From positions 11,407 through 75,406 of the forward strand of contig CAAGEF010000115.1 in NCBI GenBank assembly GCA_900768805.1: a DNA stretch of 64,000 bases. Reading direction: 5' to 3'. The position numbers were made by a program, and so were the translations under genes. The notes beneath the pieces are model-generated. The model saw only the letters and a list, made by a program, of their open reading frames with translations, searched no databases and had not been told where the DNA came from. Of the stretch, positions 3,668 to 62,838 are shown piece after piece; the stretch's first letter is position 1; each line of letters begins with the position of its first letter. The DNA is from Clostridia bacterium (GTDB lineage: Bacteria; Bacillota; Clostridia; TANB77; CAG-508).

Positions 3668-3688
3668 TTTTATTTTGATTAGTTTATA
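3668..3688. repeat. recurrent intergenic motif copy (TTTTGATTAGTTTA variant)
   Basis: Member of the TTTTAATT(A)TGATTAGTTTA family; lies upstream of gene 2933..3649. Confidence 0.4.
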
Positions 3689-3703
3689 TTTATCCTTTAT
3701 TTT

Positions 3704-4042
3704 TTATTTTTTCTTTAGCCATATTTTTCCGTCTACTAATTCAGTAGGTTCATCTCCAAATTCTATCCTTAACATTGTATCTGTTTTATTTAAAAGATAA
3801 GTTTGTAGTTTACTTATTCTTGATACTAAACAATTAAACAAATCAGCATTTATTGGTGTAAATTTTTCATTATCTGCTAAATTTGCGGTCGCAGCAGTAG
3901 CATCATCATTAACAATAGTACTATAATTTTCTCGCCATTCTTTGTTATCTAAATTAGAATCTTGTATAAATAATAATGGGTCAATACTAGTAGGATATTT
4001 AGATTCTTTATTATTCTTTAAATAATTATATATTTCTGCCAT
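3704..4042 (-). CDS. hypothetical protein (112 aa)
   Basis: Intact ORF. Confidence 0.3.
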   Translation of the reverse strand: MAEIYNYLKNNKESKYPTSIDPLLFIQDSNLDNKEWRENYSTIVNDDATAATANLADNEKFTPINADLFNCLVSRISKLQTYLLNKTDTMLRIEFGDEPTELVDGKIWLKKK

Positions 4043-4054
4043 ATTAGTACCTCG

Positions 4055-4390
4055 TTATTTCTTTAAAACTCTATAAATATCTCCGTCAACCGGACTACTA
4101 GGAAAATCTTTCGTGGAATCAACATAGATAATCTGTTGTCCTTTTGTTTTTGCATAAATTTGAGTATTTCGAAGTTCTTCTACAAGAGTCTCCATTTTTT
4201 CAGCGTCAATACAATAATCACCAAGATTATATGTATTAAAAATACTAAATGCTAATTTGTAGTTATAATTTTCAATAGCAGTATTAAATTCTTGTATCTT
4301 TGGTAAAATATCTGAATCAATATCTTTAAATGTTGGCATATTAATAATTGAACTTGGAAAATTAGAATAATTATGTGTATAATTTGCCAT
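4055..4390 (-). CDS. hypothetical protein (111 aa)
   Basis: Intact ORF. Confidence 0.3.
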   Translation of the reverse strand: MANYTHNYSNFPSSIINMPTFKDIDSDILPKIQEFNTAIENYNYKLAFSIFNTYNLGDYCIDAEKMETLVEELRNTQIYAKTKGQQIIYVDSTKDFPSSPVDGDIYRVLKK

Positions 4391-4481
4391 ATTAAATATC
4401 TCCTTTTTATTTTCAAAAATATAAGAGAAGATATAATAAAATTAATCTTCCCTCATAAAATTTTTACTAATTATTATTATT

Positions 4482-7400
4482 TTAATTTATTTCATTTGCA
4501 CCCCAAGGTGAACCAGTAGCTGAGCCATTATAATATATATGTGAAACATTATTAAAAGCATTACTTCCTATACTTGTTACACTATCTGGTATTTCAATTG
4601 AATCTAAATTAGACATATCTGCAAAACTTGATTCACCAATAGTAATAACAGTATTTGGAATATTAATAGTTGTATAGCCACTCTTATAAAAAGCATAATC
4701 ACATATTTCTATAACTGTATCAGGAATCGTATAAGTTCCTTCTTCAACTTTATTAGCATTGTATATTAATTGTGTTTTATCTTTTGAAAATAATACATTA
4801 TTTTCAACATAATAATAAGGATTATCTTCTGAAATAATTAATGTGGTTAGTTTTGGACAATTAATTAAAAAGCCACCTTTAAGATTAGACACAGAATTTG
4901 GAATATTTAAAGTTGTAAATTTAGCATTTGTAAATGTGTCATTACATATTATAGTTACTGTATCTGGAATAGAATAAGTTTCATTTACTTTATTTGCCGG
5001 ATATTTTATGAGAACAGTTTGATTTTTAGTCATAAATACTCCATCAACAGAACAATAAGAAGCATTTGAAGGATTTACATTTATTTCTTCCAAATTAATA
5101 CAGCCAATAAATGCATTTTCATTTATAGAAGTCATACTTGCAGGTATAGATATGCTCTTAACTGATGTGCAAGACAAACCTAAAGAAGCAACAGATATTA
5201 TTCCTTCTTCAAAAATAAGACTTGTTATATTATTTCGGTCAATAAATGTATTGGAATCAATTCTATTAATTGCATAATTAAAATATGAATTAAACACATA
5301 TGGAATTGTAATCTCTCCTCCATTATTATAATTATTATAACCAATAGCCCTTTTAAGCCTTTTTGCATTAAGATTAATAATTATATTATCATTTTCATCT
5401 ATAGACGCAAATTCTTTAGCACCATATAAAGTACTTAAATTATTTTTACATGCAAGTATACTAGTTTTATAAAACGCATTATTTCCAATACTAGTTGCTG
5501 AAATAGGAATAACAGCAGTTGGTAAAGAAATTGCATATTCTGTATCTAAGCTATTATAAAAAGCACAAGAATTAATAGTTTCTACACCTTCTTCTATCAT
5601 AGCATATAATATAAAACCATCAGAAAAAGCATAATTATCAATAGTTTTAACATTACTAGGTATATATATATAGTCTAAACTGTGACATCCTGAAAAAGCA
5701 TATTCACCAATATAAGTTAAAGTTTTTGGAAATTTAGGACAAGAAATAGAGCTATTATAAAAAGCATGATTACTAATCTTTACAAGATTAGTAGGCAAAT
5801 TAATATTCCTTATAGAAGCAGCAGCACCAAAACAATAAGGACTAATTTCTTTTAAAGAATTACTTAAACGCACATCTTTAAGTCTATAACAGTATTGAAA
5901 AGCATAAGAACCAATTTCTTCAACACTATCTGTCATATATACAGAGGTTAAATTTTCACATTCATAAAATGCATAATCTTGAATTTTTTTAACAGTATCA
6001 GGAATAGATACATAGGTAATATCTAAATTTCTATTAAAAGTAAGTCCTATTTTAGTAATAGTAAATTCAATATTCTTATAAGTAAAAGTAGAAGGAATAT
6101 TCACTTTACCTTGTGTTGGTATATTTGTCCATGCTAAAATATTAGAAGTTAAAGTAATGTTTGGCTCAGATACAACCTGAGTGCTAGAATTAAATGCGTT
6201 TTTTCCTATATTTGCATTTCCTTTATATAGCACTAATAATATTGAACTAGAGTAAAATGCTAATGATTCTATTGTTTCAACGCTTGAAGGTATTTTTATA
6301 ATCTCAGCTTTACATGAACTAAAAGCAGAATTTCCAATATATTGTAAACCTTCGTTTAAAGTTAATTCTGTTATATTAATATTGTTAAAAGCATACGCAC
6401 CAATTTTTTTAACACTTCCTGGAATTTCTATTTTAGTTAATCGACTACAACTAAAGAAAGCGTGATCACCTATTTCTTGAAGTGCTCTATTAAATTTAAA
6501 ATCAGTTAATGAGCATTGATTAAAAGCATAATCTCCAATATATTTTAAATTAATAGAAAAAGATATATGTTTTAAATTATAACAATCATAAAAAGTTTTC
6601 TTTTCAATTCTTGTTACATTATTAGATAAAATAACAGACTCTAGATTTTTGCATTGTGAAAAAGCAGAAGCACCAACTTTTGTGATTGTATCAGGCATTG
6701 TAACACTAATTAATTCTGTATTATTTGCAAAAGCACTTTCTGCAATAGAAGTAATTTTATATTCTACTCCTTTATACAAAAATTTCTCAGGAATAACTAA
6801 ATTTCCAGATAAAGATTCAATACCTGTCATAGTATAATTACTAGCTGATAATTCAAAATCTACTAATTCACTTTCATCATTACTTTGATAAAGTGGATAA
6901 AAAGTATACATTTCAATAGTAGATATATGATTCTCATGATCATGTGAAATGTTATGAGTTATGTATTGCTTGATCTCATTAGTATTAGCTTTTTTATATG
7001 ATATTTTCATATATTCATTTAACCATGGAATAATACTTGTCTTAATCGTAATACTATCCGTAATTCTACAATTTTTCCATAATTCATAAGCTGCGGTTTC
7101 AACAGCAGTAGAATCAGATTGAATTTCTGCATATTTATCATCAGCATAAGTCTTATTACGTTCTCCTATTTTCTGTACAACATAAGGAGAGTCTTTGATA
7201 ATTTCAATCTTTATATTATTACAGTTATATTTATATTTAAAATAATCTTTTGAATATTTATCAACTGTAACTTGTCTACCATCTACTATAGTAGTATAAC
7301 CATTCTTTATTGTTTCACCATTAGACAAAACAGCAAGTCCATGCACTTGATATTGACCTAATAAATAGAACTTTTCTGTAACAGCTTTATCAATATAACA

Positions 7401-16234: not shown

Positions 16235-16355
16235 ATTAAAATTTTTTAAATCTTTAAATTCATTTTTAATTTCATCTATAGACTTTCCAAATAATCCAAT
16301 AGACTCAATCGCTCCTGTAGATTCATTTGTAATTGTTTGGAATATCGAACTTTAT

Positions 16356-16384
16356 TTGACATATACTTTGTGGAATAGTATATT
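16356..16384 (+). promoter_or_regulatory. sigma-A-type promoter for zinc-ribbon gene (TTGACA-N17-TATATT)
   Basis: TTGACA at 16356-61, 17-nt spacer, TATATT at 16379-84. RBS AAGGAGAG at 16404-11, ATG at 16420. Confidence 0.6.
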
Positions 16385-16419
16385 ATGTTAATAAAGAATC
16401 TATAAGGAGAGAATAAATA

Positions 16420-16764
16420 ATGTTAATTAATAGAGATGTTTATGAATGTAATAAATGTAAAAAATCATATTTTTTTGATACTGATAAACCTTATTCTAAA
16501 ATATGTCCTGAATGTGGAGAAGAATTAACCTTTGAATTAAATTACGATTATGATACTGAAAAAGAGCCACCATCAGTATACGACCCAACAGAAGATCCCA
16601 ATAGCCCATATTATATTCCAAAAGTAGAATGTCCATATTGTCATTCTACAAAAACAGAAAAGATAGGAGTTATAAAACGTTCTTTTTCATTTGGATTACT
16701 TGGCTTTGGAAGTAGTAAGGTGGGTAAAAATTACCATTGTAAAGTATGTGGTTCTGATTTCTAA
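16420..16764 (+). CDS. double zinc-ribbon protein (114 aa), function unknown
   Basis: Four CxxC pairs (C10/C13...C29/C32; C71/C74...C107/C110). Strong promoter and RBS. Encoded antisense to the TMP gene inside the intron-like insertion. Confidence 0.55.
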   Translation: MLINRDVYECNKCKKSYFFDTDKPYSKICPECGEELTFELNYDYDTEKEPPSVYDPTEDPNSPYYIPKVECPYCHSTKTEKIGVIKRSFSFGLLGFGSSKVGKNYHCKVCGSDF

Positions 16765-16936
16765 TATTAAATTCTATATTAGTTTTAAGTTTTATTGACA
16801 ATAAAACCAATATCCAGTAACATTATATTGTGCTACCTAAAGTGGTAGGCGGTTAGTCCTTTTGCGTAGAATTATCTACAGAACAATCACGAAAGGGGTT
16901 GTTTGAATGATTACACAAGAAAGGATAGTTTGAATA

Positions 16937-17119: not shown

Positions 17120-17125
17120 GACTTT

Positions 17126-17467: not shown

Positions 17468-17473
17468 AAGTCT

Positions 17474-17834: not shown

Positions 17835-17840
17835 ATTCAC

Positions 17841-27408: not shown

Positions 27409-27806
27409 TAATTAATACTCCCTTCTAATACAACTTGCATTGAAGAAGAAGTACCAATATTCCCATTTATTATTAATCTTCGTATATACATATTACATGG
27501 AATATCATATAATATTTGTTGCCCCTTACAATCATCTAATGAAAATCCAATTCCTTCAATCCATATTTCTTTTATCTTATTTTTTTTATACCCTTTAAAA
27601 TGATTTTGCAATTCTTTATTAAATAGAGCATTAGTGATATCTATTTCAGAACAATTTATAGAATCTAAATCTAAATTAAAGTCTGTAATTTCACTTAATG
27701 TTATTTTTGTATCATCTGTAAATAGTAAAATAATATTTTTAATTCTATCTAGTATAAATTGTTTGTTATTATTTGTTACTAATTTCATGTTCCTTTTTCT
27801 CCTCAA
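27408..27806 (-). CDS. hypothetical protein (132 aa)
   Basis: Intact ORF. Confidence 0.3.
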   Translation of the reverse strand: MRRKRNMKLVTNNNKQFILDRIKNIILLFTDDTKITLSEITDFNLDLDSINCSEIDITNALFNKELQNHFKGYKKNKIKEIWIEGIGFSLDDCKGQQILYDIPCNMYIRRLIINGNIGTSSSMQVVLEGSIN

Positions 27807-30387: not shown

Positions 30388-30417
30388 TTGCTTTTACTCC
30401 TTTCATAAATTTTAATT

Positions 30418-31701
30418 TTATGTAGTTATTACTTTATTCACATTTTCTGGTTTTAAAATATTACCAGCTAAATATGACTCTATTGTAAAAGGAATATCTA
30501 TTCCCAATACTTTTCTTTTATTATTTATATATTCTTCTAATTGTTCTGGTGTGTTATTAAGTGTCCCATATGTATTATGAAAAGAACCAGGAATTGAATG
30601 GTTATGACATTCTTTACATAATAAAATAGCATTATTATCTTCGTACCTTAAATCTTTATAAGTAGAGAAATTATATATGTGATGCATTTCTTTTATAATA
30701 TTCTTAGTCTTTCCACAACATTGACATGTATAAAAACATTTTTTATAATTTCGTTTTATCCATCTTTTATATTCAAGAGAATTTCTTTCTTTAACTCGTT
30801 CAGGTGTAATTCCACCTTTCCAATTATGATTGTTTTCTTTTGATATTTTACTTAACCATAAGCATCCACAAGATTGAATTTTTTCACTTTTTAAATGACT
30901 TGATAATATACTTTTATGTTTTGTACCACAATCACAATCACAAAACCAATATGTTCCTTGTCCTTGTTCTGTTCTTTCTTTATCTAATTCTTTAACAGTA
31001 AGATAATTAAACTTTTTACCAACTAAATTTTCAATGTTATAATGAGTTTCTTTTACGCATTTGTGACAATTAAAATTATATGTAACTGAATTATCTATTT
31101 CTCTTAAATAATCTTCATGCGAATTATTTTTACATTTCCACCATACTTTTTGTTTAGAATGAGAAGTATATTCATAGGGACTTTTTTTATTTTTATCTGA
31201 CCATATTGTTACAACTTCTGGATACAAATATCCTAATGAATTAGTTAAACATACACGTTTACCAGAACAATAAGGACAATTATGCGAATGACTAAAATTT
31301 GAAGCTAGTAAGTCATAATCTGGATGTGTATTATTATTTTGACATTTTAGCCAAATTTTTTTCTTTGATGAACCTTTTGATATTTCAAAAGGTGATATTT
31401 TATTTTTTTCTGACCAAATCGTTTTTAAATAAGTTTCTCCATAATTATCTATTATATATTGTCCAATAGAATTGCATTCTGGACATTCTATTTTAGTTCT
31501 TAAACTAGTTATATTATTCAAATTTTTTTGATAAGATTTATGAATATCTCTGTTACATTTAAACCAATATTTTAAGTTTGAACAATATGAAACTTGTTCA
31601 GGCTTTTCATTATTTAAATTATAATCCCATAATTTTAAATAATCTTGTTTATTATTTTCTAAACACCATTCATAAAAACTCTTATTTATTTTATTTTTCA
31701 T
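30418..31701 (-). CDS. free-standing HNH homing endonuclease with repeated Zn-ribbon DNA-binding modules
   Basis: C-terminal HHIYNFSTYKDLRYEDNNAILLCKECHNHSIP is an HNH motif. Three W..C..GH.W-type repeats (KYWFKCNRDIH, KIWLKCQNNNTH, KVWWKCKNNSH). The true start is probably M at 31701 (RBS GGAGG); the track's upstream extension is spurious. Confidence 0.6.
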   Translation of the reverse strand: MKNKINKSFYEWCLENNKQDYLKLWDYNLNNEKPEQVSYCSNLKYWFKCNRDIHKSYQKNLNNITSLRTKIECPECNSIGQYIIDNYGETYLKTIWSEKNKISPFEISKGSSKKKIWLKCQNNNTHPDYDLLASNFSHSHNCPYCSGKRVCLTNSLGYLYPEVVTIWSDKNKKSPYEYTSHSKQKVWWKCKNNSHEDYLREIDNSVTYNFNCHKCVKETHYNIENLVGKKFNYLTVKELDKERTEQGQGTYWFCDCDCGTKHKSILSSHLKSEKIQSCGCLWLSKISKENNHNWKGGITPERVKERNSLEYKRWIKRNYKKCFYTCQCCGKTKNIIKEMHHIYNFSTYKDLRYEDNNAILLCKECHNHSIPGSFHNTYGTLNNTPEQLEEYINNKRKVLGIDIPFTIESYLAGNILKPENVNKVITT

Positions 31702-33006: not shown

Positions 33007-33087
33007 ATTAATTTTTGAGTAGTTTAAATATAAAAATAAGAGAGTAAAAATTACTCTCTTTAAAGCGAAATTTTATTATTAAAATTT

Positions 33088-36468: not shown

Positions 36469-37200
36469 TTATAAAAATTCTTTCAGACAAGTACCAAGAA
36501 TATTATCAATAAAGGTAAGTTTCTGAATAGTAGGATAATTTTCATGCTTAATCATAGATAGAGCAGTAGTTTTAATAACTTCTTTTACTACATTAGGTGC
36601 TTTTGTAAGAAGCTCTTCGAATTTACTATCCGGTAAATCAAAAAACTCTTCTGGATATTCAGTACCTAAGAAATACTTATATGTATCTCCCAAATCCCTA
36701 CGCCACTGATAACATAAATCTGCATCTTCTATAATAATCTTAGGTTTAGTAATAAGGTCTGTTTTTCTAAGAGCTTGTAAATCTTTATATTTTAAATATT
36801 CAACATCACCATAATATTCCCAAGAATATACTGTTTGTTTATCAGCTCCAACCGTTACTAATTCCCAAGGAGTTACACTTCTGCATGGGATTTCATCATC
36901 AGGCTTAAAAGTTTTACTACTGATTCTTATATCTGATACTTTTTCCGTTTTATCATTTTTAATATTATTATTTGTAACTTCATTTTTTTCTGTTTCTGTT
37001 GAAATAACAAAATTTGCTTTAGCTATTTCAATCATTTCATCTGTCACTATTTGCATGTGACTTGATACTTTAAAACCTTTTTCTTTCAAAAAAGTAATTA
37101 AATCTTTATTTGTTATTCCTAATTCTTTTGATAAGTCATTAACTTTCATATTTTCCTTTTTCTCCTTTAAAAATGTGACGAGTATTAAAACTCGCCACAA
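36469..37200 (-). CDS. hypothetical protein (243 aa)
   Basis: Intact ORF directly after the capsid gene. Confidence 0.3.
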   Translation of the reverse strand: MWRVLILVTFLKEKKENMKVNDLSKELGITNKDLITFLKEKGFKVSSHMQIVTDEMIEIAKANFVISTETEKNEVTNNNIKNDKTEKVSDIRISSKTFKPDDEIPCRSVTPWELVTVGADKQTVYSWEYYGDVEYLKYKDLQALRKTDLITKPKIIIEDADLCYQWRRDLGDTYKYFLGTEYPEEFFDLPDSKFEELLTKAPNVVKEVIKTTALSMIKHENYPTIQKLTFIDNILGTCLKEFL

Positions 37201-37216: not shown

Positions 37217-37239
37217 ATTTTAATTATAATTAGTTTAAA
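37217..37239. repeat. recurrent intergenic motif copy
   Basis: ATTTTAATTATAATTAGTTTAAA, between the capsid stop and the next start. Confidence 0.45.
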
Positions 37240-39016: not shown

Positions 39017-39040
39017 ATATTTAATTTTAATTAGTTTATT
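39017..39040. repeat. recurrent intergenic motif copy
   Basis: ATATTTAATTTTAATTAGTTTATT. Confidence 0.45.
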
Positions 39041-40808: not shown

Positions 40809-40896
40809 TTTTCCGTTTCTTCCTCCTTCCTTTTATATTTAAAATTTTTTAGCAATAAAAAATCCTCTTAAAAGAAGAGGAGAATTTTATATCAAT

Positions 40897-40918
40897 ATTT
40901 AATTTTAATTAGTATAAA
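40897..40918. repeat. recurrent intergenic motif copy
   Basis: ATTTAATTTTAATTAGTATAAA. Confidence 0.45.
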
Positions 40919-42727: not shown

Positions 42728-42750
42728 GTTTTAATTTTGATTAGTATATA
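42728..42750. repeat. recurrent intergenic motif copy
   Basis: GTTTTAATTTTGATTAGTATATA, between the terL stop and the portal start. Confidence 0.45.
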
Positions 42751-52815: not shown

Positions 52816-52860
52816 CCATCTTTCTTATATATTTCTAGTTATACTAGATGTTTTACATTA

Positions 52861-52880
52861 TTTAATTTTAATTAGTTTAT
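52861..52880. repeat. recurrent intergenic motif copy
   Basis: TTTAATTTTAATTAGTTTAT. Confidence 0.45.
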
Positions 52881-53807: not shown

Positions 53808-53831
53808 TTATATTTTAATTATGATTAGTTT
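53808..53831. repeat. recurrent intergenic motif copy
   Basis: TTATATTTTAATTATGATTAGTTT; 24/24 identical to the copy at 54223. Confidence 0.5.
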
Positions 53832-53840
53832 GGTAAAAAA

Positions 53841-54113
53841 TTACTTTACAGCGTCCTTTAAAGCCTTACCAGCCTTAAACTTAGGAACTTTAGTTGCTGC
53901 AATCTGAATTGTCTCACCAGTCTGAGGATTTCTTCCTTCTCTTGCTGCTCTCTCAGAAACTTCAAATGTACCGAAGCCTACCAACTGAATCTTTTCACCA
54001 CGTCCTAATGATTCTGTAATTACATCAATAGTAGCAGTTAAAGCTGCCTCTGCGTCCTTCTGTGTAGTTCCTAACTTCTCTGCGATTGCCTTTACTAAAT
54101 CCTTCTTGTTCAT
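53841..54113 (-). CDS. hup: HU/IHF-family histone-like DNA-binding protein
   Basis: 90 aa: [13 protein letters not shown]...[51 protein letters not shown]. Full-length match to bacterial HU. Much higher GC than flanks. Confidence 0.85.
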
Positions 54114-54222: not shown

Positions 54223-54247
54223 TTATATTTTAATTATGATTAGTTTA
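54223..54247. repeat. recurrent intergenic motif copy
   Basis: TTATATTTTAATTATGATTAGTTTA; immediately follows the stop of 54245..54583. Confidence 0.5.
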
Positions 54248-54583: not shown

Positions 54584-54793
54584 ATTATCCTTTTCTCCTT
54601 ATATATTTTGTGATTAGTAAAAAATAAGGGGGAATTAATCACTAATCACGTTCTCCATTTCCTATTTTACATTTTGGTGCTTTCCCTTATTGTCATTTTG
54701 ATTATTTTATGCAGTTTTTTAGACCTTCAAAAAACCCTTGTTTTATAAGCTTTTTTGAAGATGCTATTTTGTATAAAACTTTTTTTTAGAAAA

Positions 54794-57733
54794 TTATTTT
54801 TTTTCGTAATATCTTTGTAATGCTTTTTTTCTATTTATTTCTTCATAACATTTGACACAATATTTTGAACGATTATTAGTTACTTTAAATCTTTCACCAC
54901 AAATAGAGCATCTTTTAGTTCCTTTCAATTTGTTTTCAAGATTATTGTAAATAACGTCTCCATATAGTTTCCAAAGAGTATCTTTATTTGCGTCATCTTG
55001 TAATAATTTAATTAATACATCACAGATAAATTCTTTAGGATATCCTAATATTTTAGAAAATTCATCTCTTTGTATTAAAGAGTCTTTTTCTAAAAACATT
55101 AATATTTTTTGTTTCTCTCGAATATCACAACTATCAAAATCCATTCGCATTAATTGTCTTAATTTGCAAAGTTCTAATTCTCTATATAAAGAAAGAATTT
55201 TTTCTCCTTCTTCTTCAGTGAATTCGATTTCAGGGTTATTCATTAACATTTTGTAATTATATTTTGATTTTCCCAAAACGTTTTTATCATTAAAGACAAT
55301 TTTATTACTACGTACAATTTTAGATATACGATTAATATTATTATCTGTAGGTTTTTCAACCTGTTTATTTTGTTTGTCTTTAGCATAAATAAAGAAATGA
55401 GGAACTTTTCTCCCACTATATTGTTTATAAATAGCTTTTATATTTTTAGGAATAGTAGGTTTATACAATGTTTTAGCATAATCAATAACATAATTTACAT
55501 CACAACATCGTAAAGCAACAATTTCAATAGCTTGCTCTATTTCTTCTTTTGTACTTTTAGGATTTAAAGTATCAAAAATTTTAGTAATTTCATTACTAGG
55601 TGTTCCAATATTTCCATGATGGTAAGCCATAACAATGCCATTGAATAAGGTATCATCATTAAGCTTTTCAGGATTTGCCTTTGGCATATCATAATAATTT
55701 GGTATCATACCATATTTCTTTTGAAAACTTCTTGCACAATCAATAATTACTTTATTATTATGAACTAAAGAAATATCTCCATCATTATCATACATTAATA
55801 GTTTACTCATAATATCATTAACACCAACATACAAAGCTTTTGTCTTATACCATGAATTTACTTCTTTATTATTCACATTTTTGCGAATACAATGAGCATG
55901 ATCTAAATGAGGAGAACGTAAACAATCAACCTCAGTATTATCATCAAATAAATTACAATGTACTTGTCCTTCCTTGAGTAATCCCAATTTAGATAAGTCT
56001 CTTTCACCTGTAAACCACCATTGTAAACAAGCTAAAGGTTCTGGCACAATAAAAGTATATTGTCCATTAATATTGAATTTACCACTACGGAGTTTTTTTA
56101 TCATACTGTTTTTTGTATTCTTTAGCAGTGTTTTTACATAATAATCTTTAAACATTTCAGGGTAAAGTAGCAATGACTTTTGAAAATAATTCAAATTATC
56201 ATTCTTTTCAGGATTAGCCCCTAAAAGATTCAACATGCTTTGTAAGTCTCTACCAATTCCATTTAAATTTGTTATATCGTAATCAGCAAGTTCCAATATT
56301 TGTTTATTTGTCATTTCAGTTGTTAATGTTTGCAACATCTGATAATTTGTTTTGGCATTTAGTCGCAGATTCTTTTTTTCAATATTACAACGGTTTGCTG
56401 TACAACCATATTCCTTAAAATATTCTTTATATACATCCCAACCAGATTTTAACAATGTGTCATTTTCATCATAAACGTTTTGATAGTATTTATGCATCTT
56501 AAATTGACTTTCTGTAAATAAATAATCTACATCATCAATGTTGTGTTCAACACCATATATATCAATAACTTTATTGATGGTAATGTTATTTTCTTTACAC
56601 CATGCTTTAAATTTATGCTTGGAAATATAAGATAATAAACCTTTCATAAAAGGCATACGTACCATAGCATTAGGTTCATTTTTAAAAGTAATACCGAAAC
56701 CGTCAGTAAAAGGAATTGTTACACTCATTTTCTTAATTTCAATACTGTGATATTTTGACTGGATGTCACTTATCATTTGATTTAATCTTTTCCTTTTTTC
56801 TTTTAGTCCTTTTTCTTCTAATATTACCTCTTTAGACCTTTTTGTACCTTTAGATAATTGTTCTTTCTCCTTTTTAATTTTAAGCAGTTTAGAAGAAATA
56901 ATTTTAATTTCTTTCTTAATATCTGCAATTTGTTTTTTGTCTTCAGGGGTTTCAGTATATATATGTCTAACTTTTTGATCTGGAATTGAAAATTCAATAT
57001 CTGGAACTACAATAGCTCTATCTATATCAAAATCAAACCAAATAGAAGTATTAGACTGACATAAACTTGTATATGCTAAAAACTTATTTGTGTTCATTCC
57101 ACCAAGCTCATTGATTTTTTCTCTACTAAGACCACAAAAAAATCTGTTAAAATTTTCAATTAACTTATCTTCGGAAGTAAAAGTGCTTTTTTTATTTCTT
57201 GTTTGTCCAGCACCAGCAGTAAAAAATACAAATTTCTTACCTTTATATATAAATCCATTATGCATAAGAGAATCAAAAATTTCAGTATAATATGTAACCA
57301 CACTAATAATATCATCAGAATGTTGCATGTCTTCACAATGAAAAGCTCTAGTAAGTTCACTTTCAAAAATATTGATATTTCTAAATTGATCTTCATGACA
57401 CCATTCACGATTATCAAATATTTCTCTAGTAATCTTTATATTTTCTTTTAAAAGCTGTTTAAATTGATTTTCAGTATCTTCAATAATCACCTTATTATTA
57501 TTATACTTTTCTTTTAATGGCTTTCTCCTTACTTCAAGCCATTTATAATAACAGTCATCAAATTCTAAATATAGCTGCTTTGATTCTATAAAGCTAATTG
57601 TCTTAGCTAATTGATAGTTTTCTTTTTCTACTTGCTTACGATAAATATATAATTCATATTCTTCTTGTGTCAATAAAGGTTCAAAACCAATATTTAATAT
57701 TTCAATTATAGATTTTCCATCTCCATATGCCAT
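54794..57733 (-). CDS. large hypothetical protein (979 aa), possible nucleic-acid polymerase/primase-like
   Basis: Weak motifs only: FDFDIDRAIV, KNSMIKKLRSGKF, MYDNDGDIS (YxDxDGD-like), and a C-terminal Zn ribbon CSICGE...CVKC. No confident family assignment. Confidence 0.3.
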   Translation of the reverse strand: MAYGDGKSIIEILNIGFEPLLTQEEYELYIYRKQVEKENYQLAKTISFIESKQLYLEFDDCYYKWLEVRRKPLKEKYNNNKVIIEDTENQFKQLLKENIKITREIFDNREWCHEDQFRNINIFESELTRAFHCEDMQHSDDIISVVTYYTEIFDSLMHNGFIYKGKKFVFFTAGAGQTRNKKSTFTSEDKLIENFNRFFCGLSREKINELGGMNTNKFLAYTSLCQSNTSIWFDFDIDRAIVVPDIEFSIPDQKVRHIYTETPEDKKQIADIKKEIKIISSKLLKIKKEKEQLSKGTKRSKEVILEEKGLKEKRKRLNQMISDIQSKYHSIEIKKMSVTIPFTDGFGITFKNEPNAMVRMPFMKGLLSYISKHKFKAWCKENNITINKVIDIYGVEHNIDDVDYLFTESQFKMHKYYQNVYDENDTLLKSGWDVYKEYFKEYGCTANRCNIEKKNLRLNAKTNYQMLQTLTTEMTNKQILELADYDITNLNGIGRDLQSMLNLLGANPEKNDNLNYFQKSLLLYPEMFKDYYVKTLLKNTKNSMIKKLRSGKFNINGQYTFIVPEPLACLQWWFTGERDLSKLGLLKEGQVHCNLFDDNTEVDCLRSPHLDHAHCIRKNVNNKEVNSWYKTKALYVGVNDIMSKLLMYDNDGDISLVHNNKVIIDCARSFQKKYGMIPNYYDMPKANPEKLNDDTLFNGIVMAYHHGNIGTPSNEITKIFDTLNPKSTKEEIEQAIEIVALRCCDVNYVIDYAKTLYKPTIPKNIKAIYKQYSGRKVPHFFIYAKDKQNKQVEKPTDNNINRISKIVRSNKIVFNDKNVLGKSKYNYKMLMNNPEIEFTEEEGEKILSLYRELELCKLRQLMRMDFDSCDIREKQKILMFLEKDSLIQRDEFSKILGYPKEFICDVLIKLLQDDANKDTLWKLYGDVIYNNLENKLKGTKRCSICGERFKVTNNRSKYCVKCYEEINRKKALQRYYEKK

Positions 57734-59300: not shown

Positions 59301-59552
59301 TTACACATTTTTAATTATATTTAGTCTATTTTCTTGTAAAATAGTTTGAAGCTTTTCTTTCAAACCTTTATCGTTTTTAAAAACATATATTGTTCTTTTA
59401 CCGTCAGGGTCTAGCTTATCTGGCTTAATATCTATAATACGATATCCGTCTTTTAATAAAATCCTTGCTGCTTGACTAGTAAAAACTAATATAGAGGTCT
59501 TTTCCGTTATATTCATAATTATTCCTCCATCATTTTTAAACTTCTCAAACAC
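59301..59552 (-). CDS. hypothetical protein (83 aa)
   Basis: Intact ORF. Confidence 0.3.
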   Translation of the reverse strand: MFEKFKNDGGIIMNITEKTSILVFTSQAARILLKDGYRIIDIKPDKLDPDGKRTIYVFKNDKGLKEKLQTILQENRLNIIKNV

Positions 59553-60687
59553 TTACCGAGAACTTCTACAAACTTATCACATTCTTCAAAAGTAGTATCA
59601 TGACTAAGACTTATTCTTACTGTACTAAACGCTTCTTCATCACTTAAACCAATAGCTTTAAGTATTCTACTTGGCGTTTTTTCACCAGAACAACATGCGG
59701 AACCGGCACTAATTGTAATTCCTTTTTCATTAAGAAGTGCAATAAGCTGCTCTGCATTTATTCCTTTAAAAGTAAGTGAGAGATTGTTAGGAAGTCTATC
59801 TACTAGGTCACCGTTTAAATATACTTCAATATTCTCTTCCTTTACCAAATCATAAATACTGTTAAGTAAGTAATCACTCATTCCACGTACAGAAATATAT
59901 CTGTCTGCTATTTCATACTCATAATACATTCTTTCAACTTGATTTCCTAAAGCATATATCATAGGAACATTTTCTGTTCCTGACCTACGATTTTCAAATT
60001 GATGTCCGCCATGAATTAATGGTACTAATTCAATTCCTTTTTTATATATAAGAAACCACAATTTTTAAAACCATTAAATTTATGAAAGCTTACGCTCATT
60101 AAATCAATACCTGCATTTTTTACACCAATAGGTATCTGTCCAAATGCTTGCACTGCATCTACATGTAAAGTTCCATTATATTGATGTACCATTTTAGATA
60201 TAGTTTCAATTTTATTAATTGTACCGATTTCATTATTAGCCATCATGATGCTTGCAAATATTTTTTTTGTCTCTGTAATGTTCAATTATTTTTTCTAATT
60301 TCGCATAGCAAACTTCTCCAAAACAATTAACAGGTACATATTCTACTGTATAGCCAAAGTTTCTAAATATTTACAAGTGTTATACACAGAAGGATGTTCA
60401 ATAGGAGTAGTAATAATAACTATTTCATCAGTTTTGTATTGACTTACAAAACCTTTAATAACCCAATTATTTGATTCAGACCCTCCAGAAGTAAATACAA
60501 TCTCATCTAGTTCGGCAAATATGTAATTAGCTACTTGTTCTTGTGCGTGGTAAATAATCTGTTTTTCTTTCATTCCTTCAGTACTTATATCAGAAGGATT
60601 TGCCCAAATATTTTCAGCACAATACATAAAATCTTGTAATACTTCTTTTGAAGGTTTAGTGATACTAGAATTATTTAAATAAATCAT
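59519..60687 (-). pseudogene. cysteine desulfurase (NifS/IscS-like, PLP class V) split into three ORFs by frameshifts
   Basis: 60343..60687 carries the N-terminal part (...IVFTSGGSESNNWVIKG...ITTPIEHPSVYN). 60025..60285 carries the middle (...HVDAVQAFGQIPIGVKNAGIDLMSVSFHKFNGFKNCGFLYIKK, i.e. the S.HK PLP-lysine region). 59519..60061 carries the C-terminal part (LIHGGHQFENRRSGTENVPMIYALG...). The summed length of ~380 aa equals one intact enzyme. Confidence 0.5.
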
Positions 60688-61180: not shown

Positions 61181-61199
61181 ATTTTAATTATGATTAGTT
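61181..61199. repeat. recurrent intergenic motif copy
   Basis: ATTTTAATTATGATTAGTT. Confidence 0.5.
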
Positions 61200-61206
61200 C
61201 GATTAT

Positions 61207-61743
61207 TTACTGTTTGTTTTCTCTCTTTAATTCATTTAAATATCCAAGTTTTCTTGCTTCAACTCTTGCTTTAGCATTAGCATCAGCTCTAGATCTCAAT
61301 TCAATGCAACCACAGCTAGGAGTCCATGCTTCTATATAATCAACACATCTTTGATAATCACATTTCTTAGTTGTTGGTATAGATGCTCCCAATCCAGCAT
61401 TTTGTCTTGTATCTTTATATAAAGTGTAGAAAAATATTTTAGAATATTTTTGATAGTCAAGAGAAGAACTATCACCAAGTATTTCAAATATTCTCTTTTT
61501 TGCAAGCCTATTAATATTTTTTGTTTGCGCAGTTGTAATTTCTATATTTTCTTTTAATTCAAAAATATCAGACTTCATTTCATTAACATCATCAGTCAAA
61601 CTATTAACAGCACTAGTAACTACGCCTAGTTGTTTACTCATATTATTTACATTCATTGCAGATTGTCCAACAATATTCATTAATTGTTGCATATCATAAT
61701 TATTATCTCTATTATTTCCATTATTAATCATCATTCCATTCAT
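61207..61743 (-). CDS. hypothetical protein (178 aa)
   Basis: Intact ORF; Asn-rich N-terminus. Confidence 0.3.
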   Translation of the reverse strand: MNGMMINNGNNRDNNYDMQQLMNIVGQSAMNVNNMSKQLGVVTSAVNSLTDDVNEMKSDIFELKENIEITTAQTKNINRLAKKRIFEILGDSSSLDYQKYSKIFFYTLYKDTRQNAGLGASIPTTKKCDYQRCVDYIEAWTPSCGCIELRSRADANAKARVEARKLGYLNELKRENKQ

Positions 61744-61764
61744 AAGTAATATTCCTCCTAAAAT

Positions 61765-62793
61765 TTAATTATTAATATTATTTAAAAGTGTGTTTGCCCA
61801 ACCATATACTGCATTTACGGCACTTAGGTAAGATTTTCTTTCGTATTCAGGTAATTCATTAATATGATCAGTTAACCAAGCATATCCACCTGTTTTTTCA
61901 ATAAAATCTGCGACTCTAGAACAAAAGAAAATAGTTGAATCTTTAAGTTTTTTATTATATTGTTCAGTAGGAGTTATTTCTTTCATTTTCTCAATCTGTT
62001 TACGCAATTCTTGAAGTTCTGAAACTTTATTTTTATATTGAGTTTTCAAATTAGAATAATCTTTTTTATAATCTTCAAGTAATTTTTTAGTAGTTTCATA
62101 ATCTTCTGGCTTTGGTGGATTCTCTTTTAATTTTTTGATTTCATCAATATATTCTTTAACTTGTGATTGAGTAACTTTTTTAGTAGTATCTAAAGAAGAA
62201 ATAAGTTCTAACTGTTCTTCTTCAGATAAATTACGCATAATAGCAAGAGCAGTAGTAGGTGTAGCAATTCCTGTATCTACTAATTCTTCAAGCTCTGGTA
62301 TCATTTCTGTGAGCTTTTTATAGTTTTGAAGAGTATCTACAGAAATACCTATTTCTTTTGCTAAATCTTCTTGAGAATTAATTACCGAATTATTCGGTAG
62401 TTTTTTTTGTGGTCTTCCTTCACGAATCCCATAAATCCTTTCAAGTTCCTTGATACATCTTCCTAATTTCATTGGATTTGGATTGCCTATGCCTCTTTGA
62501 CGTATGTTCGTTTCAATAAGGTCAGCTAAAATTTCATCTTCAGATTCATAAATTTTAATTTCAGCATTAACTTGCTTGATTCCAAGTTCCTTTAATCCTC
62601 TTACTCTTTGATGCCCTGAAACAATGGTTTTATCTTGTGTAATAACAATTGGTTCAACATTTCCAGTTTTACCATTCTTGATACGTTCACGCATTGAATC
62701 TAAAAATTGTTCCCAATTTGACCCAACAATATCATCAAAAAACTCATTGTTTCTTGGATGTGGTTTTAATTCATTAATGTTAATTTGCTGCAT
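61765..62793 (-). CDS. ParB-like nuclease domain protein
   Basis: N-terminal ELKPHPRNNEFFDD...EPIVITQDKTIVSGHQRVRGLKELG (ParB N-domain) with a C-terminal coiled coil. Confidence 0.6.
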   Translation of the reverse strand: MQQININELKPHPRNNEFFDDIVGSNWEQFLDSMRERIKNGKTGNVEPIVITQDKTIVSGHQRVRGLKELGIKQVNAEIKIYESEDEILADLIETNIRQRGIGNPNPMKLGRCIKELERIYGIREGRPQKKLPNNSVINSQEDLAKEIGISVDTLQNYKKLTEMIPELEELVDTGIATPTTALAIMRNLSEEEQLELISSLDTTKKVTQSQVKEYIDEIKKLKENPPKPEDYETTKKLLEDYKKDYSNLKTQYKNKVSELQELRKQIEKMKEITPTEQYNKKLKDSTIFFCSRVADFIEKTGGYAWLTDHINELPEYERKSYLSAVNAVYGWANTLLNNINN

Positions 62794-62816
62794 TTTACTA
62801 TCCTTTCTATAATATA

Positions 62817-62838
62817 CTTTTAATTATGATTAGTTTAT
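62817..62838. repeat. recurrent intergenic motif copy
   Basis: CTTTTAATTATGATTAGTTTAT; the motif contains the TAA stop of 62830..63819. Confidence 0.5.

What the first reader, a model, noticed from the sequence alone, without database searches (positions are those of the whole stretch)
3668..62838. Conserved ~20-nt motif TTTTAATT(A)TGATTAGTTTA (minus strand TAAACTAATCA(T)AATTAAAA) in at least 10 intergenic sites, always directly after a stop codon
Copies sit 0-10 nt downstream of the preceding minus-strand gene's stop. In one case the motif contains the TAA. They lie 55-125 nt upstream of the next start. Two copies are identical over 24 nt. The flanking hexamers are not conserved, so it is not a plain sigma-A promoter. 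The conserved block itself is the signal. Candidates are a phage-specific middle/late promoter element, an anti-terminator or RNA-processing site, or a regulator operator.
Basis: seen in the sequence. Interest (0 to 1): 0.55.

Follow-up and report, generated by a model that had tools for sequence, protein, structure and literature searches.

The report
Repeated phage promoter-like intergenic motif
A 20-base AT-rich sequence repeated at gene boundaries of an SPbeta-like phage that carries its own YonO-type RNA polymerase is most likely the phage's own transcription start signal, which would make it a testable candidate promoter for a polymerase whose promoter was still undefined in the papers I could search.

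Summary
The motif is real. TAAACTAATYAWAATTAAAW has 11 strong copies, all on the coding (minus) strand and all at gene boundaries (13 hits at up to 3 mismatches against 0.86 expected). The window is a 27% GC phage related to Bacillus phage SPbeta. ORF 54794-57733 is a homologue of YonO, the single-subunit RNA polymerase that transcribes SPbeta late genes, and YonN (HU), YonJ, YonG, YonV and terminase homologues are present. The motif has a -10-like hexamer but no -35 box and no TG. Close relatives carry variants (core ACTA-N3-AWAATTAAA) whose orientation follows the gene strand. Isolated YonO phages (Perkons, D-1873) carry related elements at the same late-gene junctions.

Best reading (about 0.4): a single-block promoter for the phage polymerase, which reads through the hairpin terminators that follow four window copies.

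Main rival: an operator like SPbeta's SPBRE, the MrpR repressor site. In relatives the motif flanks or overlaps sigma-A promoters exactly as SPBRE does.

An RNA-level signal is not excluded. This is a new variant of a known kind, of moderate interest.

The parts
62818..62837 (-). Motif copy TAAACTAATCATAATTAAAA. It overlaps the stop of the YonV-like ORF by 8 nt and ends 24 nt before the ATG of the ParB-like gene.
61182..61201 (-). Motif copy CGAACTAATCATAATTAAAA. It starts 5 nt after the upstream stop and ends 32 nt before the next ATG.
59309..59328 (-). Motif copy TAGACTAAATATAATTAAAA, 40 nt upstream of the CoiA-like gene that is translationally coupled to the YonO gene.
54228..54247 (-). Motif copy whose own TAA is the stop of the 112-aa Zn-ribbon gene. 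It is followed by a stem-loop and then the HU (YonN-like) gene. Relatives have a copy in the same slot (L122 8271, L124 13531).
53813..53832 (-). Motif copy 8 nt after the HU stop and 52 nt before tRNA-Asn. This is the same gene interval (downstream of the yonN homologue) in which the YonO start site of SPbeta lies.
52860..52879 (-). Motif copy 24 nt after tRNA-Lys and 44 nt before the beta-CASP nuclease gene.
42729..42748 (-). Motif copy between the terminase and portal genes, 3 nt after the stop and about 42 nt before the portal ATG. Perkons has an element at the same junction (125505).
40897..40916 (-). Motif copy between a small ORF after the portal gene and the 590-aa protease/scaffold gene. 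A hairpin plus T-run follows at 40881-40863.
39019..39038 (-). Motif copy that contains the stop of the 590-aa gene. A hairpin plus T-run follows 11 nt later, upstream of the scaffold and capsid genes.
37218..37237 (-). Motif copy 2 nt after the stop of the putative major capsid protein gene (365 aa; identified by gene order and phrog_4088, a family of unknown function). The terminator-like hairpin 37199-37174 follows, and then the next gene's RBS.
3667..3686 (-). Motif copy TAAACTAATCAAAATAAAAA, 17 nt after the upstream stop and 17 nt (the RBS only) before the next ATG.
33007..33026 (-). Weak variant TAAACTACTCAAAAATTAAT, placed after a terminator hairpin and directly before the next gene.
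30410..30429 (-). Weak variant (core ACTACATAAAATTAAAA) overlapping the end of the 450-aa gene, followed by an RBS.
27737..27756 (-). Weak variant TATACTAGATAGAATTAAAA at a gene boundary in the tail region.
54794..57733 (-). Gene for a YonO-type single-subunit two-barrel RNA polymerase (979 aa; catalytic motif LLMYDNDGD). It is the proposed reader of the motif.
53841..54113 (-). HU-like gene, 58% identical to SPbeta YonN. It fixes the synteny with the SPbeta yonO-yonN late-operon start.
37174..37199 (-). Intrinsic-terminator-like hairpin (10 bp stem plus T-run) that begins 18 nt downstream of motif copy 37237.
40863..40881 (-). Intrinsic-terminator-like hairpin plus T-run that begins 15 nt downstream of motif copy 40916.

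Best explanation
The 20-nt block is a phage-specific, single-block promoter. It consists of the conserved ACTA, three variable bases, a -10-like hexamer [C/T]A[T/A]AAT, and TAAAA. Transcription would start at or just past its 3' edge, giving leaders of 15-110 nt. The polymerase would be the phage's own YonO-type single-subunit RNA polymerase, alone or with a phage factor.

Copies upstream of the portal, protease/scaffold, scaffold-plus-capsid, post-capsid, HU, tRNA, nuclease and polymerase genes would act as internal boosters of a long co-directional late region. YonO is highly processive and lacks the flap domain used for hairpin-dependent termination. Transcripts started at the motif could therefore pass the hairpin terminators that follow four window copies, while host polymerase would be stopped there.

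Shown here: the motif, its statistics, strand and positions; its variants in relatives; the YonO gene and the synteny. The broader claim, that this is a DNA-level signal where transcription starts or is controlled, I put at about 0.75-0.8. The claim that it is a promoter for some polymerase I put at about 0.55-0.6.
For: (1) Non-random and strand-specific: 13 hits against 0.86 expected, 11 strong copies, none on the plus strand, all at gene boundaries.
(2) Orientation follows the gene strand on both strands in relatives (L124 minus-strand copies 4694, 1975, 1915, 1333).
(3) Many copies are the only conserved sequence in a 36-57 nt intergenic gap that otherwise holds just an RBS (3686, 61201, 62837; L124 1333, 8087, 8385), so no other promoter fits there.
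(4) No -35 box and no TGn, so it is not a standard sigma-A promoter. Generic sigma-70-like sites are not enriched in the window.
(5) The phage encodes YonO: 35% identity over 80% of the protein to SPbeta YonO (E 2e-89), with the catalytic DNDGD motif conserved. Synteny with the SPbeta late region holds.
(6) SPbeta late structural genes depend on YonO, and its start site lies downstream of yonN (PMC5467207). Window copy 53832 sits directly after the yonN homologue.
(7) The late-junction copies recur in relatives at the same gene junctions: after the protease/scaffold gene in L001 (7330), and at the YonO/HU, post-HU, terminase/portal and pre- and post-capsid junctions in the isolated phage Perkons.
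(8) The core ATAATTAA is shared with Perkons (YonO 37% identical) and with related elements in phage D-1873. This suggests a conserved reader.
(9) The order motif, then hairpin terminator, then gene (37237, 39038, 40916; L124 4694) makes sense only for a terminator-insensitive polymerase. YonO shows little pausing and transcribes the SPbeta late operon, which contains annotated stem-loops, as one unit.
(10) Precedent: other phage two-barrel polymerases use conserved motifs within about 30 nt upstream of their start sites (P23-45).
(11) In a sister lineage (L128) canonical sigma-A promoters lie in the tRNA-containing region downstream of YonO, where the window has motif copies.
Against: (1) No transcript 5' ends are available for this phage or any close relative.
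(2) In relatives the motif sits at fixed distances around canonical sigma-A promoters: 7-10 nt upstream of the -35, and starting about 7-10 nt after the -10, with pairs 60-64 bp apart (L124 6550/6614, 8024/8087, minus-strand 1975/1915; L122 577/641). This is the architecture of SPBRE, the experimentally shown MrpR repressor site of SPbeta.
(3) In Perkons the related element overlaps sigma-A promoters in two different registers, which is what an operator does.
(4) SPbeta's own late operon has no such element between its genes. The region bracketed by the published primer-extension primers shows no clear match. An AT-rich block that is 12/17 identical to window copy 37237 lies about 100 nt further upstream.
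(5) Copies also precede the polymerase gene itself and early-type genes (YonV-like, ParB-like).
(6) YonO lineages at 59-62% identity lack a recognisable version of the motif.
Confidence: 0.4

Rival explanations
1. SPBRE-type operator. The motif is the binding site of this lineage's master regulator, the functional counterpart of MrpR/YopR of SPbeta. That protein could be a pure repressor. It could also be a dual-function factor that shuts off flanking sigma-A early promoters and marks or activates late units. On this reading the motif is not a polymerase recognition site.
For: - SPBRE is a 15-22 bp element repeated about 12 times in SPbeta, co-oriented with genes and bound by MrpR in ChAP-seq and EMSA (PMC10516654).
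- I located its copies. They occur 7 nt upstream of a -35 (aimR), as pairs 64-68 bp apart flanking a sigma-A promoter (yonX, yosX), just after a -10 (yopV), and abutting the SD.
- The window motif shows the same layouts in L124, L134 and L122. Lineage-specific elements do so in L157, L155 and L137.
- In Perkons, ATAATTAAGTT lies inside the spacer of TTGACA-N17-TATNAT promoters or just after extended -10 boxes. Perkons carries two integrase-annotated genes flanking a third gene (ORF64-66), an arrangement resembling SPbeta yopP-yopQ-yopR; homology to YopR was not tested.
- MrpR homologues lie next to YonO in several Paenibacillus prophages.
Against: - In the window none of the 11 copies has a sigma-A promoter next to it.
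- At least 8 copies sit between late genes, where SPbeta has no SPBRE.
- A pure operator gives no reason for strict co-orientation with transcription.
- A pure operator gives no reason for the recurrence of copies at late-gene junctions across lineages.
- A pure operator has no evident role just upstream of a terminator.
- No MrpR homologue was found in the window or in the fragments of close relatives, although those fragments are incomplete.
- Sequence similarity to SPBRE is weak.
- Operators of heteroimmune temperate phages usually diverge quickly, yet the core ATAATTAA is shared with Perkons.
Confidence: 0.27
2. RNA-level signal. The motif acts in the transcript as a punctuation mark at cistron boundaries, in the 3'UTR before terminators and in the 5'UTR before the SD. 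It could be a cleavage or binding site for a phage factor, such as the conserved beta-CASP/RNase J-like nuclease (51367-52815). Alternatively it could be a nut/put-like antitermination site placed ahead of terminators.
For: - It is always on the transcribed strand and always in transcribed intergenic RNA.
- It often lies between a stop codon and a terminator hairpin (37237, 39038, 40916; L124 4694) or directly abuts the SD.
- The second copy of each pair lies at about +1 to +20 of the sigma-A transcript.
- A beta-CASP nuclease gene is conserved in the window, L122 and L124.
- The late region contains many intrinsic terminators that late transcription must pass.
Against: - Some copies may not be transcribed at all. 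L124 6550 lies upstream of the sigma-A promoter with no called gene on its strand for about 1.1 kb, and a weak copy (5749) lies ahead of the leftward promoter.
- The closest characterised analogue, SPBRE, works at the DNA level.
- A 17-20 nt unstructured recognition sequence of high information content is unusual for RNases.
- No Rfam family matches it.
- Only 4 of roughly 12 terminators in the window are preceded by a copy.
Confidence: 0.12
3. Host-polymerase promoter. The internal hexamer [C/T]A[T/A]AAT is a sigma-A -10 box. Host RNA polymerase would use it without a -35 box, helped by a phage activator or a phage sigma-like factor that reads the flanking ACTA and TAAAA. T4 late promoters read by gp55 are the model.
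For: - A -10-like hexamer lies at a fixed position in every copy, and TATAAT lies at the corresponding position of the related elements of L157, L143 and Perkons.
- In Perkons some late copies have weak sigma-A geometry, for example TTACAT-16-TACAAT upstream of ORF207.
Against: - There is no -35 box and no TGn.
- Half of the hexamers start with C.
- No sigma or activator gene was identified among the roughly 30 window proteins scanned, but the remaining ORFs were not scanned.
- A host polymerase starting at copies 37237, 39038 or 40916 would meet an intrinsic terminator within 11-20 nt.
Confidence: 0.08
4. Sequence-specific terminator or pause site for the hairpin-insensitive YonO polymerase, placed straight after stop codons.
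For: The motif lies close to the upstream stop (-8 to +24 nt). It sometimes sits next to a conventional hairpin terminator, which would give a dual stop for two polymerases.
Against: - It would end transcription ahead of the portal, protease, scaffold and capsid genes, with no way to restart.
- L124 copies 6550 and 6614 lie in a non-coding region with no called upstream gene on their strand.
- Copies directly abut the next gene's SD.
Confidence: 0.03

Closest known systems
SPBRE (SPbeta repeated element), the recognition site of the master repressor MrpR/YopR of Bacillus phage SPbeta
   Same: - It occurs in the same phage family: YonO, YonN, YonG, YonF, YonJ and YonV homologues are shared.
- It is a 15-22 bp AT-rich element repeated about a dozen times, intergenic and co-oriented with genes.
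- The layouts match those of the window motif in its close relatives: 7 nt upstream of a sigma-A -35, starting about 7 nt after the -10, pairs 60-68 bp apart flanking a sigma-A promoter, and often abutting the SD.
- A copy lies upstream of the polymerase operon and another just after the yonV homologue.
   Different: - The sequence differs: ACAAATACAAAWAATATGTATA against TAAACTAATYAWAATTAAAW.
- Several SPBRE copies are themselves good sigma-A promoters (TAGACA-N17-TATAAT). The window motif has no -35.
- SPBRE is confined to early genes and absent from the SPbeta late operon. In the window most copies lie between late genes with no sigma-A promoter nearby.
- No MrpR homologue was found in the DNA available here.
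[quoted passage not shown]
   Same: - A contiguous conserved block of about 20 bp with no -35/-10 split.
- Many copies per genome, all co-oriented with genes, in short intergenic gaps.
- Sometimes followed by stem-loops.
- The genome encodes its own polymerase.
   Different: - The polymerase here is YonO-type, distantly related to multisubunit RNAPs and RNAi RdRPs and unrelated to T7 RNAP. Its promoter was stated to be undefined in 2017 (PMC5467207), and my searches of the held paper library found no later definition.
- No start sites have been mapped here.
- The motif also keeps fixed positions around host-type promoters in relatives, which T7-type promoters do not do.
T4 late promoters (TATAAATA, read by gp55 with gp33 and the sliding clamp)
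   Same: A -10-region-only, AT-rich promoter with no -35 box, used for late structural genes.
   Different: The T4 element is 8 bp and is read by host core polymerase with a phage sigma. Here 17-20 bp are conserved, no sigma-like gene was seen among the proteins scanned, and a phage polymerase is present.
PeSL cassettes (early promoter plus stem-loop) of T4-type phages. This comparison rests on my own knowledge of Arbiol et al. 2010.
   Same: A repeated promoter-like sequence followed by a stem-loop between genes. Four of the 11 window copies have this form.
   Different: PeSLs contain canonical sigma-70 early promoters and lie in hyperplastic early regions. Here the element lacks sigma-A features and lies in the late module.

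Membership tests
Promoter of a phage-encoded RNA polymerase (here YonO-type) | The genome encodes the polymerase | tested here: met
   ORF 54794-57733 matches SPbeta YonO by tblastn at 35% identity over 80% coverage (E 2e-89). The catalytic DNDGD motif is conserved. Some homologues carry Pfam PF05183.
Promoter of a phage-encoded RNA polymerase (here YonO-type) | A conserved contiguous motif, over-represented, intergenic and co-oriented with genes | tested here: met
   13 hits against 0.86 expected; 11/11 strong copies on the coding strand at gene boundaries; orientation follows the gene strand in L124.
Promoter of a phage-encoded RNA polymerase (here YonO-type) | Primary transcript 5' ends at a fixed distance from the motif | not testable with these tools
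   No transcriptome exists for this uncultured phage or its close relatives.
Promoter of a phage-encoded RNA polymerase (here YonO-type) | Resemblance to the only mapped YonO start region (SPbeta, genome position 2225998) | tested here: inconclusive
   I could not convert the start site to phage coordinates. B. subtilis 168 was not among the loci returned by the genome scan. The published primer pair brackets L126 20573-20330, where no clear match occurs. An AT-rich block TTAATTAATTATAGTTATTTAT (L126 20695-20668) is 12/17 identical to window copy 37237 but lies about 100 nt further upstream.
Promoter of a phage-encoded RNA polymerase (here YonO-type) | The motif co-occurs with the polymerase gene across relatives | tested here: inconclusive
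   Variants are present in YonO-bearing relatives at 70-81% identity (L122, L124, L129). Related elements occur in Perkons, D-1873, L157 and L155. Lineages at 59-62% lack a recognisable version, and YonO could not be confirmed on the 206-kb contig of L001, which carries motif variants.
SPBRE / MrpR operator | A repeated 15-22 bp element in intergenic regions of an SPbeta-type phage, co-oriented with genes | tested here: met
SPBRE / MrpR operator | Overlaps or flanks sigma-A promoters of early genes | tested here: inconclusive
   Met in relatives: L124 and L122 motif pairs flank sigma-A promoters. Not met for any of the 11 window copies: no -35/-10 partner.
SPBRE / MrpR operator | Matches the SPBRE consensus ACAAATACAAAWAATATGTATA | tested here: not met
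   Hand alignment of the sequences gives about 9-10 of 14 positions in an all-A/T context. A scan with the window's motif pattern finds no SPBRE site in the SPbeta stretch L126.
SPBRE / MrpR operator | An MrpR/YopR homologue is encoded by the phage | tested here: inconclusive
   tblastn with SPbeta YopR finds nothing in the window, L122, L124, L129 or L001. It does find homologues next to YonO in Paenibacillus prophages. The window covers only part of the genome.
SPBRE / MrpR operator | Confined to early or lysogeny-control genes and absent from the late operon | tested here: not met
   Window copies lie at the terminase/portal, portal/protease, protease/scaffold and post-capsid junctions. SPbeta has none in its late operon.
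Sigma-A (sigma-70 type) promoter | -35 TTGACA-like box 16-18 bp upstream of a -10 hexamer | tested here: not met
   Mean best -35 score is 2.79/6 over 42 sites against 2.59 +/- 0.92 at random positions. Flanking columns are unconserved.
Sigma-A (sigma-70 type) promoter | -10 TATAAT-like hexamer, or TGn extended -10 | tested here: inconclusive
   A hexamer [C/T]A[T/A]AAT occupies motif positions 10-15 in all copies, but TG is absent and six of the 11 strong copies start with C.
Intrinsic terminator | A G+C-rich hairpin followed by a T-run, within the motif itself | tested here: not met
   The motif has a single C at position 5 and none of the G+C-rich pairing a terminator stem needs. Hairpins occur downstream of only 4 copies and have unrelated sequences.
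Known RNA family (Rfam) | A match at gathering score | tested here: not met
   Only four tRNAs were reported in the window.

The most novel reading that the evidence does not exclude
The motif (core ACTA-N3-AWAATTAAA, sharing ATAATTAA with the elements of phages Perkons and D-1873) is recognised directly by the YonO-type single-subunit two-barrel RNA polymerase. That would give a candidate promoter consensus for this polymerase class. The same sites may also be occupied by an SPBRE/MrpR-like regulator and lie against host sigma-A promoters. Competition for one DNA element among repressor, host polymerase and phage polymerase would then form the early-to-late (or lysogeny-to-lysis) switch of a widespread group of Bacillota phages.
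Probability: 0.3. Interest if true: 0.75.

Novelty: new variant of a known kind. Interest (0 to 1): 0.55.

Why it matters
YonO is the founding member of a class of single-chain RNA polymerases distantly related to cellular multisubunit enzymes. The 2017 paper stated that its promoter, and whether it needs helper factors, were unknown. My searches of the held paper library found no later answer.

This window and its relatives offer a concrete candidate with many natural variants. Copies occur with and without adjacent host promoters, and with and without downstream terminators. A purified polymerase plus a handful of templates could settle the question.

The alternative is also informative. If the motif is the SPBRE counterpart, then repressor sites in this phage family extend into late structural operons, which is not known for SPbeta.

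The analysis also shows that AT-rich repeated elements of this kind occur in several YonO-encoding Bacillota phages: SPbeta, Perkons, D-1873 and gut metagenomic lineages. That helps annotate transcription units in these large, poorly understood phages.

Tried and rejected
- megablast of 10 kb of the window against GenBank phages found no match.
- I tried to recover the window's own 76.7-kb contig beyond the window. Only contigs of 3.5 kb and 1.4 kb were returned, or the protein was not on record.
- I tried to map the published SPbeta YonO start site (B. subtilis 168 position 2225998) onto the phage record. The genome scan did not return strain 168. Supplements and literature searches gave no coordinates. 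Footprinting among SPbeta-like Bacillus prophages was uninformative, because they are 83-85% identical across the whole gap.
- I first thought the motif/sigma-A/motif module of L124 followed a YonV homologue, as in SPbeta. That was wrong: the L124 329-aa protein is unrelated to the window's YonV-like ORF. The architectural parallel stands, but strict synteny does not.
- I tested whether that 329-aa gene is MrpR-like. It is not.
- De novo motif searches in YonO lineages at 59-62% identity found other elements but not this motif: an operator-like palindrome TTTAGGTACATATATATGTACCTAAA, conserved terminator arms TACTCTTCTATT, and canonical sigma-A promoters.
- Readings as an ECF-type or sporulation-sigma promoter, an IHF site or a parS site were checked by eye against consensus sequences recalled from memory, and were dropped for lack of fit.
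- The terminator reading was rejected, because it would block expression of the head genes.

Full report
OBSERVATION. The motif is present and far from chance. TAAACTAATCANAATTAAAA with up to 3 mismatches occurs 13 times, always on the minus strand, against 0.86 +/- 0.82 in dinucleotide shuffles. A position-weight scan separates 11 strong copies (21-27 bits) from a few weak ones and finds nothing on the plus strand. In minus-strand reading the strong copies start at 3686, 37237, 39038, 40916, 42748, 52879, 53832, 54247, 59328, 61201 and 62837. An unsupervised word search of the window's intergenic DNA recovers the motif as its top result. The consensus is T-A-A-A-C-T-A-A-T-[C/T]-A-[A/T]-A-A-T-T-A-A-A-[A/T], with invariant ACTAA and A.AAT.AAA, and the flanks are unconserved. 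Copies 53832 and 54247 are identical over 25 nt.

All genes of the window are on the minus strand, so every copy is co-oriented with transcription. Every strong copy lies at a gene boundary, -8 to +24 nt from the end of the upstream gene or tRNA. The apparent exception at 40916 follows a small unlisted ORF by 15 nt. The motif ends 17 to 114 nt before the next start codon or tRNA, and six of the 11 distances are under 55 nt. In several cases only a Shine-Dalgarno sequence fits between motif and start. Weaker variants at gene boundaries in the tail region were missed: 33026, about 30426 and about 27753.

WHAT THE WINDOW IS. It is a 25-33% GC phage segment with five tRNAs and no close DNA relative among GenBank phages. 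It encodes a terminase (42752-44221) and a portal protein (41139-42707), identified by PHROG families. It also encodes a 590-aa protein (39036-40808) that resembles prohead proteases of large Bacillus and Clostridioides phages, a putative capsid protein (37240-38337, assigned from gene order), and two very long tape-measure-like proteins.

The key gene is the 979-aa ORF 54794-57733. It has no Pfam hit of its own. It contains LLMYDNDGD. Some homologues carry PF05183 or the name 'RNA dependent RNA polymerase'. It matches YonO of Bacillus phage SPbeta at 35% identity over 80% of its length (E 2e-89). The published Asp-to-Asn mutagenesis primer shows that the SPbeta catalytic triad is LLQFDNDGDKAL, so the catalytic motif is conserved.

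Neighbouring genes match SPbeta as well. The HU-like gene is 58% identical to YonN. YonG-like, YonJ-like and terminase (YonF) homologues follow in the same order as in SPbeta. The ORF that runs off the window at 62830-64000 is a YonV homologue at 42% identity. The window is therefore the polymerase-plus-late region of a distant, uncultured SPbeta-type phage.

WHY THAT MATTERS. YonO is a single-subunit polymerase distantly related to multisubunit RNAPs. It is highly processive, pauses little and lacks the flap domain. It is required for the 37 late (structural and lysis) genes of SPbeta, which it transcribes as one operon from a start site downstream of yonN. Its promoter, and any need for helper factors, were explicitly left open (PMC5467207). 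I found no later paper that defines them.

THE MOTIF IS NOT A SIGMA-A PROMOTER. It contains a -10-like hexamer [C/T]A[T/A]AAT at positions 10-15. There is no TG before it, and there is no -35 box. Over 42 sites in the window and relatives, the best TTGACA match at 16-18 bp scores 2.79/6 against 2.59 +/- 0.92 at random positions. Generic sigma-70-like sites are no more frequent in the window than in shuffles.

CLOSE RELATIVES. Contigs carrying YonO at 70-81% identity have variants of the motif:
- L122: ACTAAACAAAATTAAA.
- L124/L134: ACTAG[A/G][T/C]ATAATTAAAA and ACTACGCAWAATTAAA.
- L129: ACTAGTTAAAATTATA.
- L001 (portal 75% identical): ACTAAATAAAATTAAA.

The family core is ACTA-N3-A-W-AATTAAA. 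The slots before and after the Zn-ribbon gene and HU are occupied in each of L122 and L124. In L124, copies on the minus strand precede minus-strand genes (4694, 1975, 1915, 1333), so orientation follows transcription rather than the replicon. L124 copies 6550 and 6614 lie in a non-coding region with no called gene on their strand for about 1.1 kb upstream. This argues against a signal anchored to an upstream gene, such as a terminator. It also weakens a purely RNA-level function.

THE COMPLICATION: SPBRE. In L124 (three times) and L122 (once) the motif occurs as a pair 60-64 bp apart around a canonical sigma-A promoter. The layout is motif, 7-10 nt, TTGACA, N17 (ending TGn in two L124 modules), TATNNT, about 3-12 nt to the ACTA core, motif, SD.

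SPbeta has the same architecture with a different sequence, the SPBRE. ChAP-seq and EMSA show that SPBRE is the binding site of the master repressor MrpR/YopR (PMC10516654). I located the SPBRE copies in SPBc2:
- Pairs 64 and 68 bp apart flank a sigma-A promoter at yonX and yosX.
- A copy lies 7 nt upstream of the -35 at aimR.
- A copy lies just after the -10 at yopV.
- Copies abut the SD at yopM and yopV.
- One copy lies upstream of the yonP-yonO operon.

Several copies are themselves TAGACA-N17-TATAAT promoters. None lies in the late operon.

Other YonO lineages have their own AT-rich element in the same three contexts:
- L157: AATTATAATTTAATATAAAW, at least 13 copies, including three in the late region that abut the SD.
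- L155: WACAATTAAATTATAAAAG.
- L137 and L143: further lineage-specific elements.

ISOLATED PHAGES. Psychrobacillus phage Perkons (complete genome, YonO 37% identical) has ATAATTAAGTT 77 times at up to 1 mismatch, against 25 in shuffles. The hits are on the plus strand in the plus-strand early half and on the minus strand in the late half. In the early half the element overlaps sigma-A promoters in two registers. It lies inside the spacer (TTGACA-tatt-ATAATTAAGTT-gg-TATTAT) or straight after an extended -10 (TGgTATACT-ATAATTAAGTT). That is how a separate protein-binding site behaves. Perkons also carries two integrase-annotated genes flanking a third gene, an arrangement resembling SPbeta yopP-yopQ-yopR.

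In the Perkons late half the element sits at the junctions where the window has its motif: between YonO and HU, after HU, terminase/portal, portal/next gene, before the capsid gene, and after it. The post-capsid copy reads TAAACTATAATTAAAG followed by a hairpin, nearly the window motif. Clostridium phage D-1873 (YonO 41% identical, 26% GC) has AAAATTAAATTAAAATATAA, and also ACTAATTAAAAAT and ACTAATTAGAAAA in its structural region. The window motif therefore belongs to an old, family-wide class of elements with a shared ATAATTAA-like core. SPbeta appears to be the unusual member, because its late operon is bare.

WEIGHING THE MECHANISMS. A DNA-level role in starting or controlling transcription is well supported. 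The evidence is strand and orientation, position ahead of RBSs and tRNAs, copies in non-coding DNA ahead of transcription units, and the experimentally characterised SPBRE analogue.

Evidence that favours the phage polymerase as reader:
- Window copies have no host promoter next to them.
- Window copies recur at late-gene junctions across lineages.
- Window copies are the only conserved sequence in 36-57 nt gaps.
- Four copies lie 10-28 nt upstream of a hairpin: 37237, 39038, 40916 and 53832. A T-run follows the first three.

A host polymerase starting at those copies would stop at once. YonO transcribes through the stem-loops annotated within the SPbeta late operon. The many hairpin terminators in the window's late region also mean that late transcription must be terminator-resistant, whoever starts it. 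Contiguous conservation over about 20 bp is the usual form of promoters for phage-encoded polymerases, including two-barrel enzymes.

Evidence that favours an operator:
- The fixed geometry around sigma-A promoters in relatives.
- The two registers seen in Perkons.
- The SPBRE precedent.
- SPbeta's own YonO start region shows no clear match. The published primers bracket L126 20573-20330. An AT-rich block 12/17 identical to window copy 37237 lies about 100 nt upstream, directly after the yonN terminator. I could not map the published coordinate exactly.

A factor that binds the element, blocks adjacent host promoters and directs late initiation would reconcile both sets of facts. I count that under the operator rival.

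My estimates are:
- YonO-read promoter: 0.40.
- SPBRE-type operator or dual factor site: 0.27.
- RNA-level signal: 0.12.
- Host -35-less promoter with a phage factor: 0.08.
- YonO terminator: 0.03.
- Something else: the remainder.

NOVELTY AND VERDICT. Repeated phage promoter and operator elements are a known kind, and SPBRE is the nearest named example. This motif fails SPBRE membership on sequence and on distribution. It cannot yet be filed as a YonO promoter, because no start sites exist. I class it as a new variant of a known kind. Its interest lies in making the question left open in 2017, what YonO recognises, directly testable. It also shows that this element class occurs in several YonO-encoding Bacillota phages and, outside SPbeta, extends into late operons.

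Noticed in passing
window 54625-54700 (minus strand); also L122 about 7795-7890, L124 about 13040-13128, L129 about 13112-13200: A conserved RNA-like element of about 65 nt lies between the YonO stop and the 112-aa Zn-ribbon gene. It reads ACAATAAGGGRAAGCACCAAAATGTAAA ... GAGAACRTGATTARTG ... CCCC followed by a T-run, with a 27-nt block that is invariant except at one R position across four lineages. The GGGG/CCCC stem with the T-run looks like a terminator or attenuator. No Rfam family matches it. It could be an unknown leader or small RNA.
   Followed up: partly
window 54794-57733 (minus strand): A YonO-type single-subunit RNA polymerase gene with no Pfam or NCBIfam hit of its own (it matches phrog_8308, 'unknown function'). 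The upstream 510-aa gene overlaps its start and is likely translationally coupled. The corresponding upstream protein in relatives carries the CoiA nuclease domain.
   Followed up: yes
window 59519-60687 (minus strand): A NifS/IscS-like cysteine desulfurase is split into at least three ORFs (60343-60687, 60025-60285, 59519-60061). It is intact at 382 aa in relative L122 (1585-2733). This is either a pseudogene or a set of assembly frameshifts.
   Followed up: partly
window 44222-48536, 31771-33006 and 16094-18297: Homing-endonuclease-like ORFs (44484-45725, 47697-48536; phrog_4645/HNH) and non-coding gaps (262, 480 and 2204 nt) interrupt the terminase and tail regions. They may be introns or mobile insertions. 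Rfam at gathering score reported none.
   Followed up: no
window 62830-64000 (minus strand): The ORF that runs off the window end is a homologue of SPbeta YonV (42% identity, E 4e-104). Here it is co-directional with and upstream of the polymerase gene. In SPbeta yonV lies on the opposite strand from yonO, on the far side of the yonP/yonR divergence point.
   Followed up: yes
window 4482-8771 (minus strand): A 1429-aa protein with BspA-type leucine-rich repeats and DUF5048 lies in the tail or host-recognition region.
   Followed up: no
window 51367-52815 (minus strand): A beta-CASP/RNase J-like metallo-beta-lactamase nuclease is conserved just downstream of the tRNA cluster in the window, L122 and L124. 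A ClpP-like protease gene follows it.
   Followed up: partly
L184 6657, 7090, 8475; L185 6824, 7162; L228 3930, 3985, 7085; L209 3976; L191 7094: Paenibacillus and Brevibacillus prophages that encode YonO carry a short conserved AATACATATA element upstream of yonO and on both sides of yonN. These are the slots occupied by the window motif, and the element resembles part of SPBRE.
   Followed up: partly
L135 5490-5702 and L135/L137 late regions: The lineage with YonO at 59% identity has an operator-like palindrome TTTAGGTACATATATATGTACCTAAA (two copies). It also has conserved terminator arms ...TACTCTTCTATT repeated after late genes and tRNAs.
   Followed up: no
L126 19153-20835 (SPbeta yonN-yonK gap): This 1.7-kb non-coding gap, which holds the 'unannotated ncRNA' downstream of the YonO start site, is 83-85% conserved in SPbeta-like Bacillus prophages. 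Segments survive in a B. pumilus prophage. In the window and in D-1873 the corresponding stretch downstream of the HU gene holds tRNA genes.
   Followed up: partly
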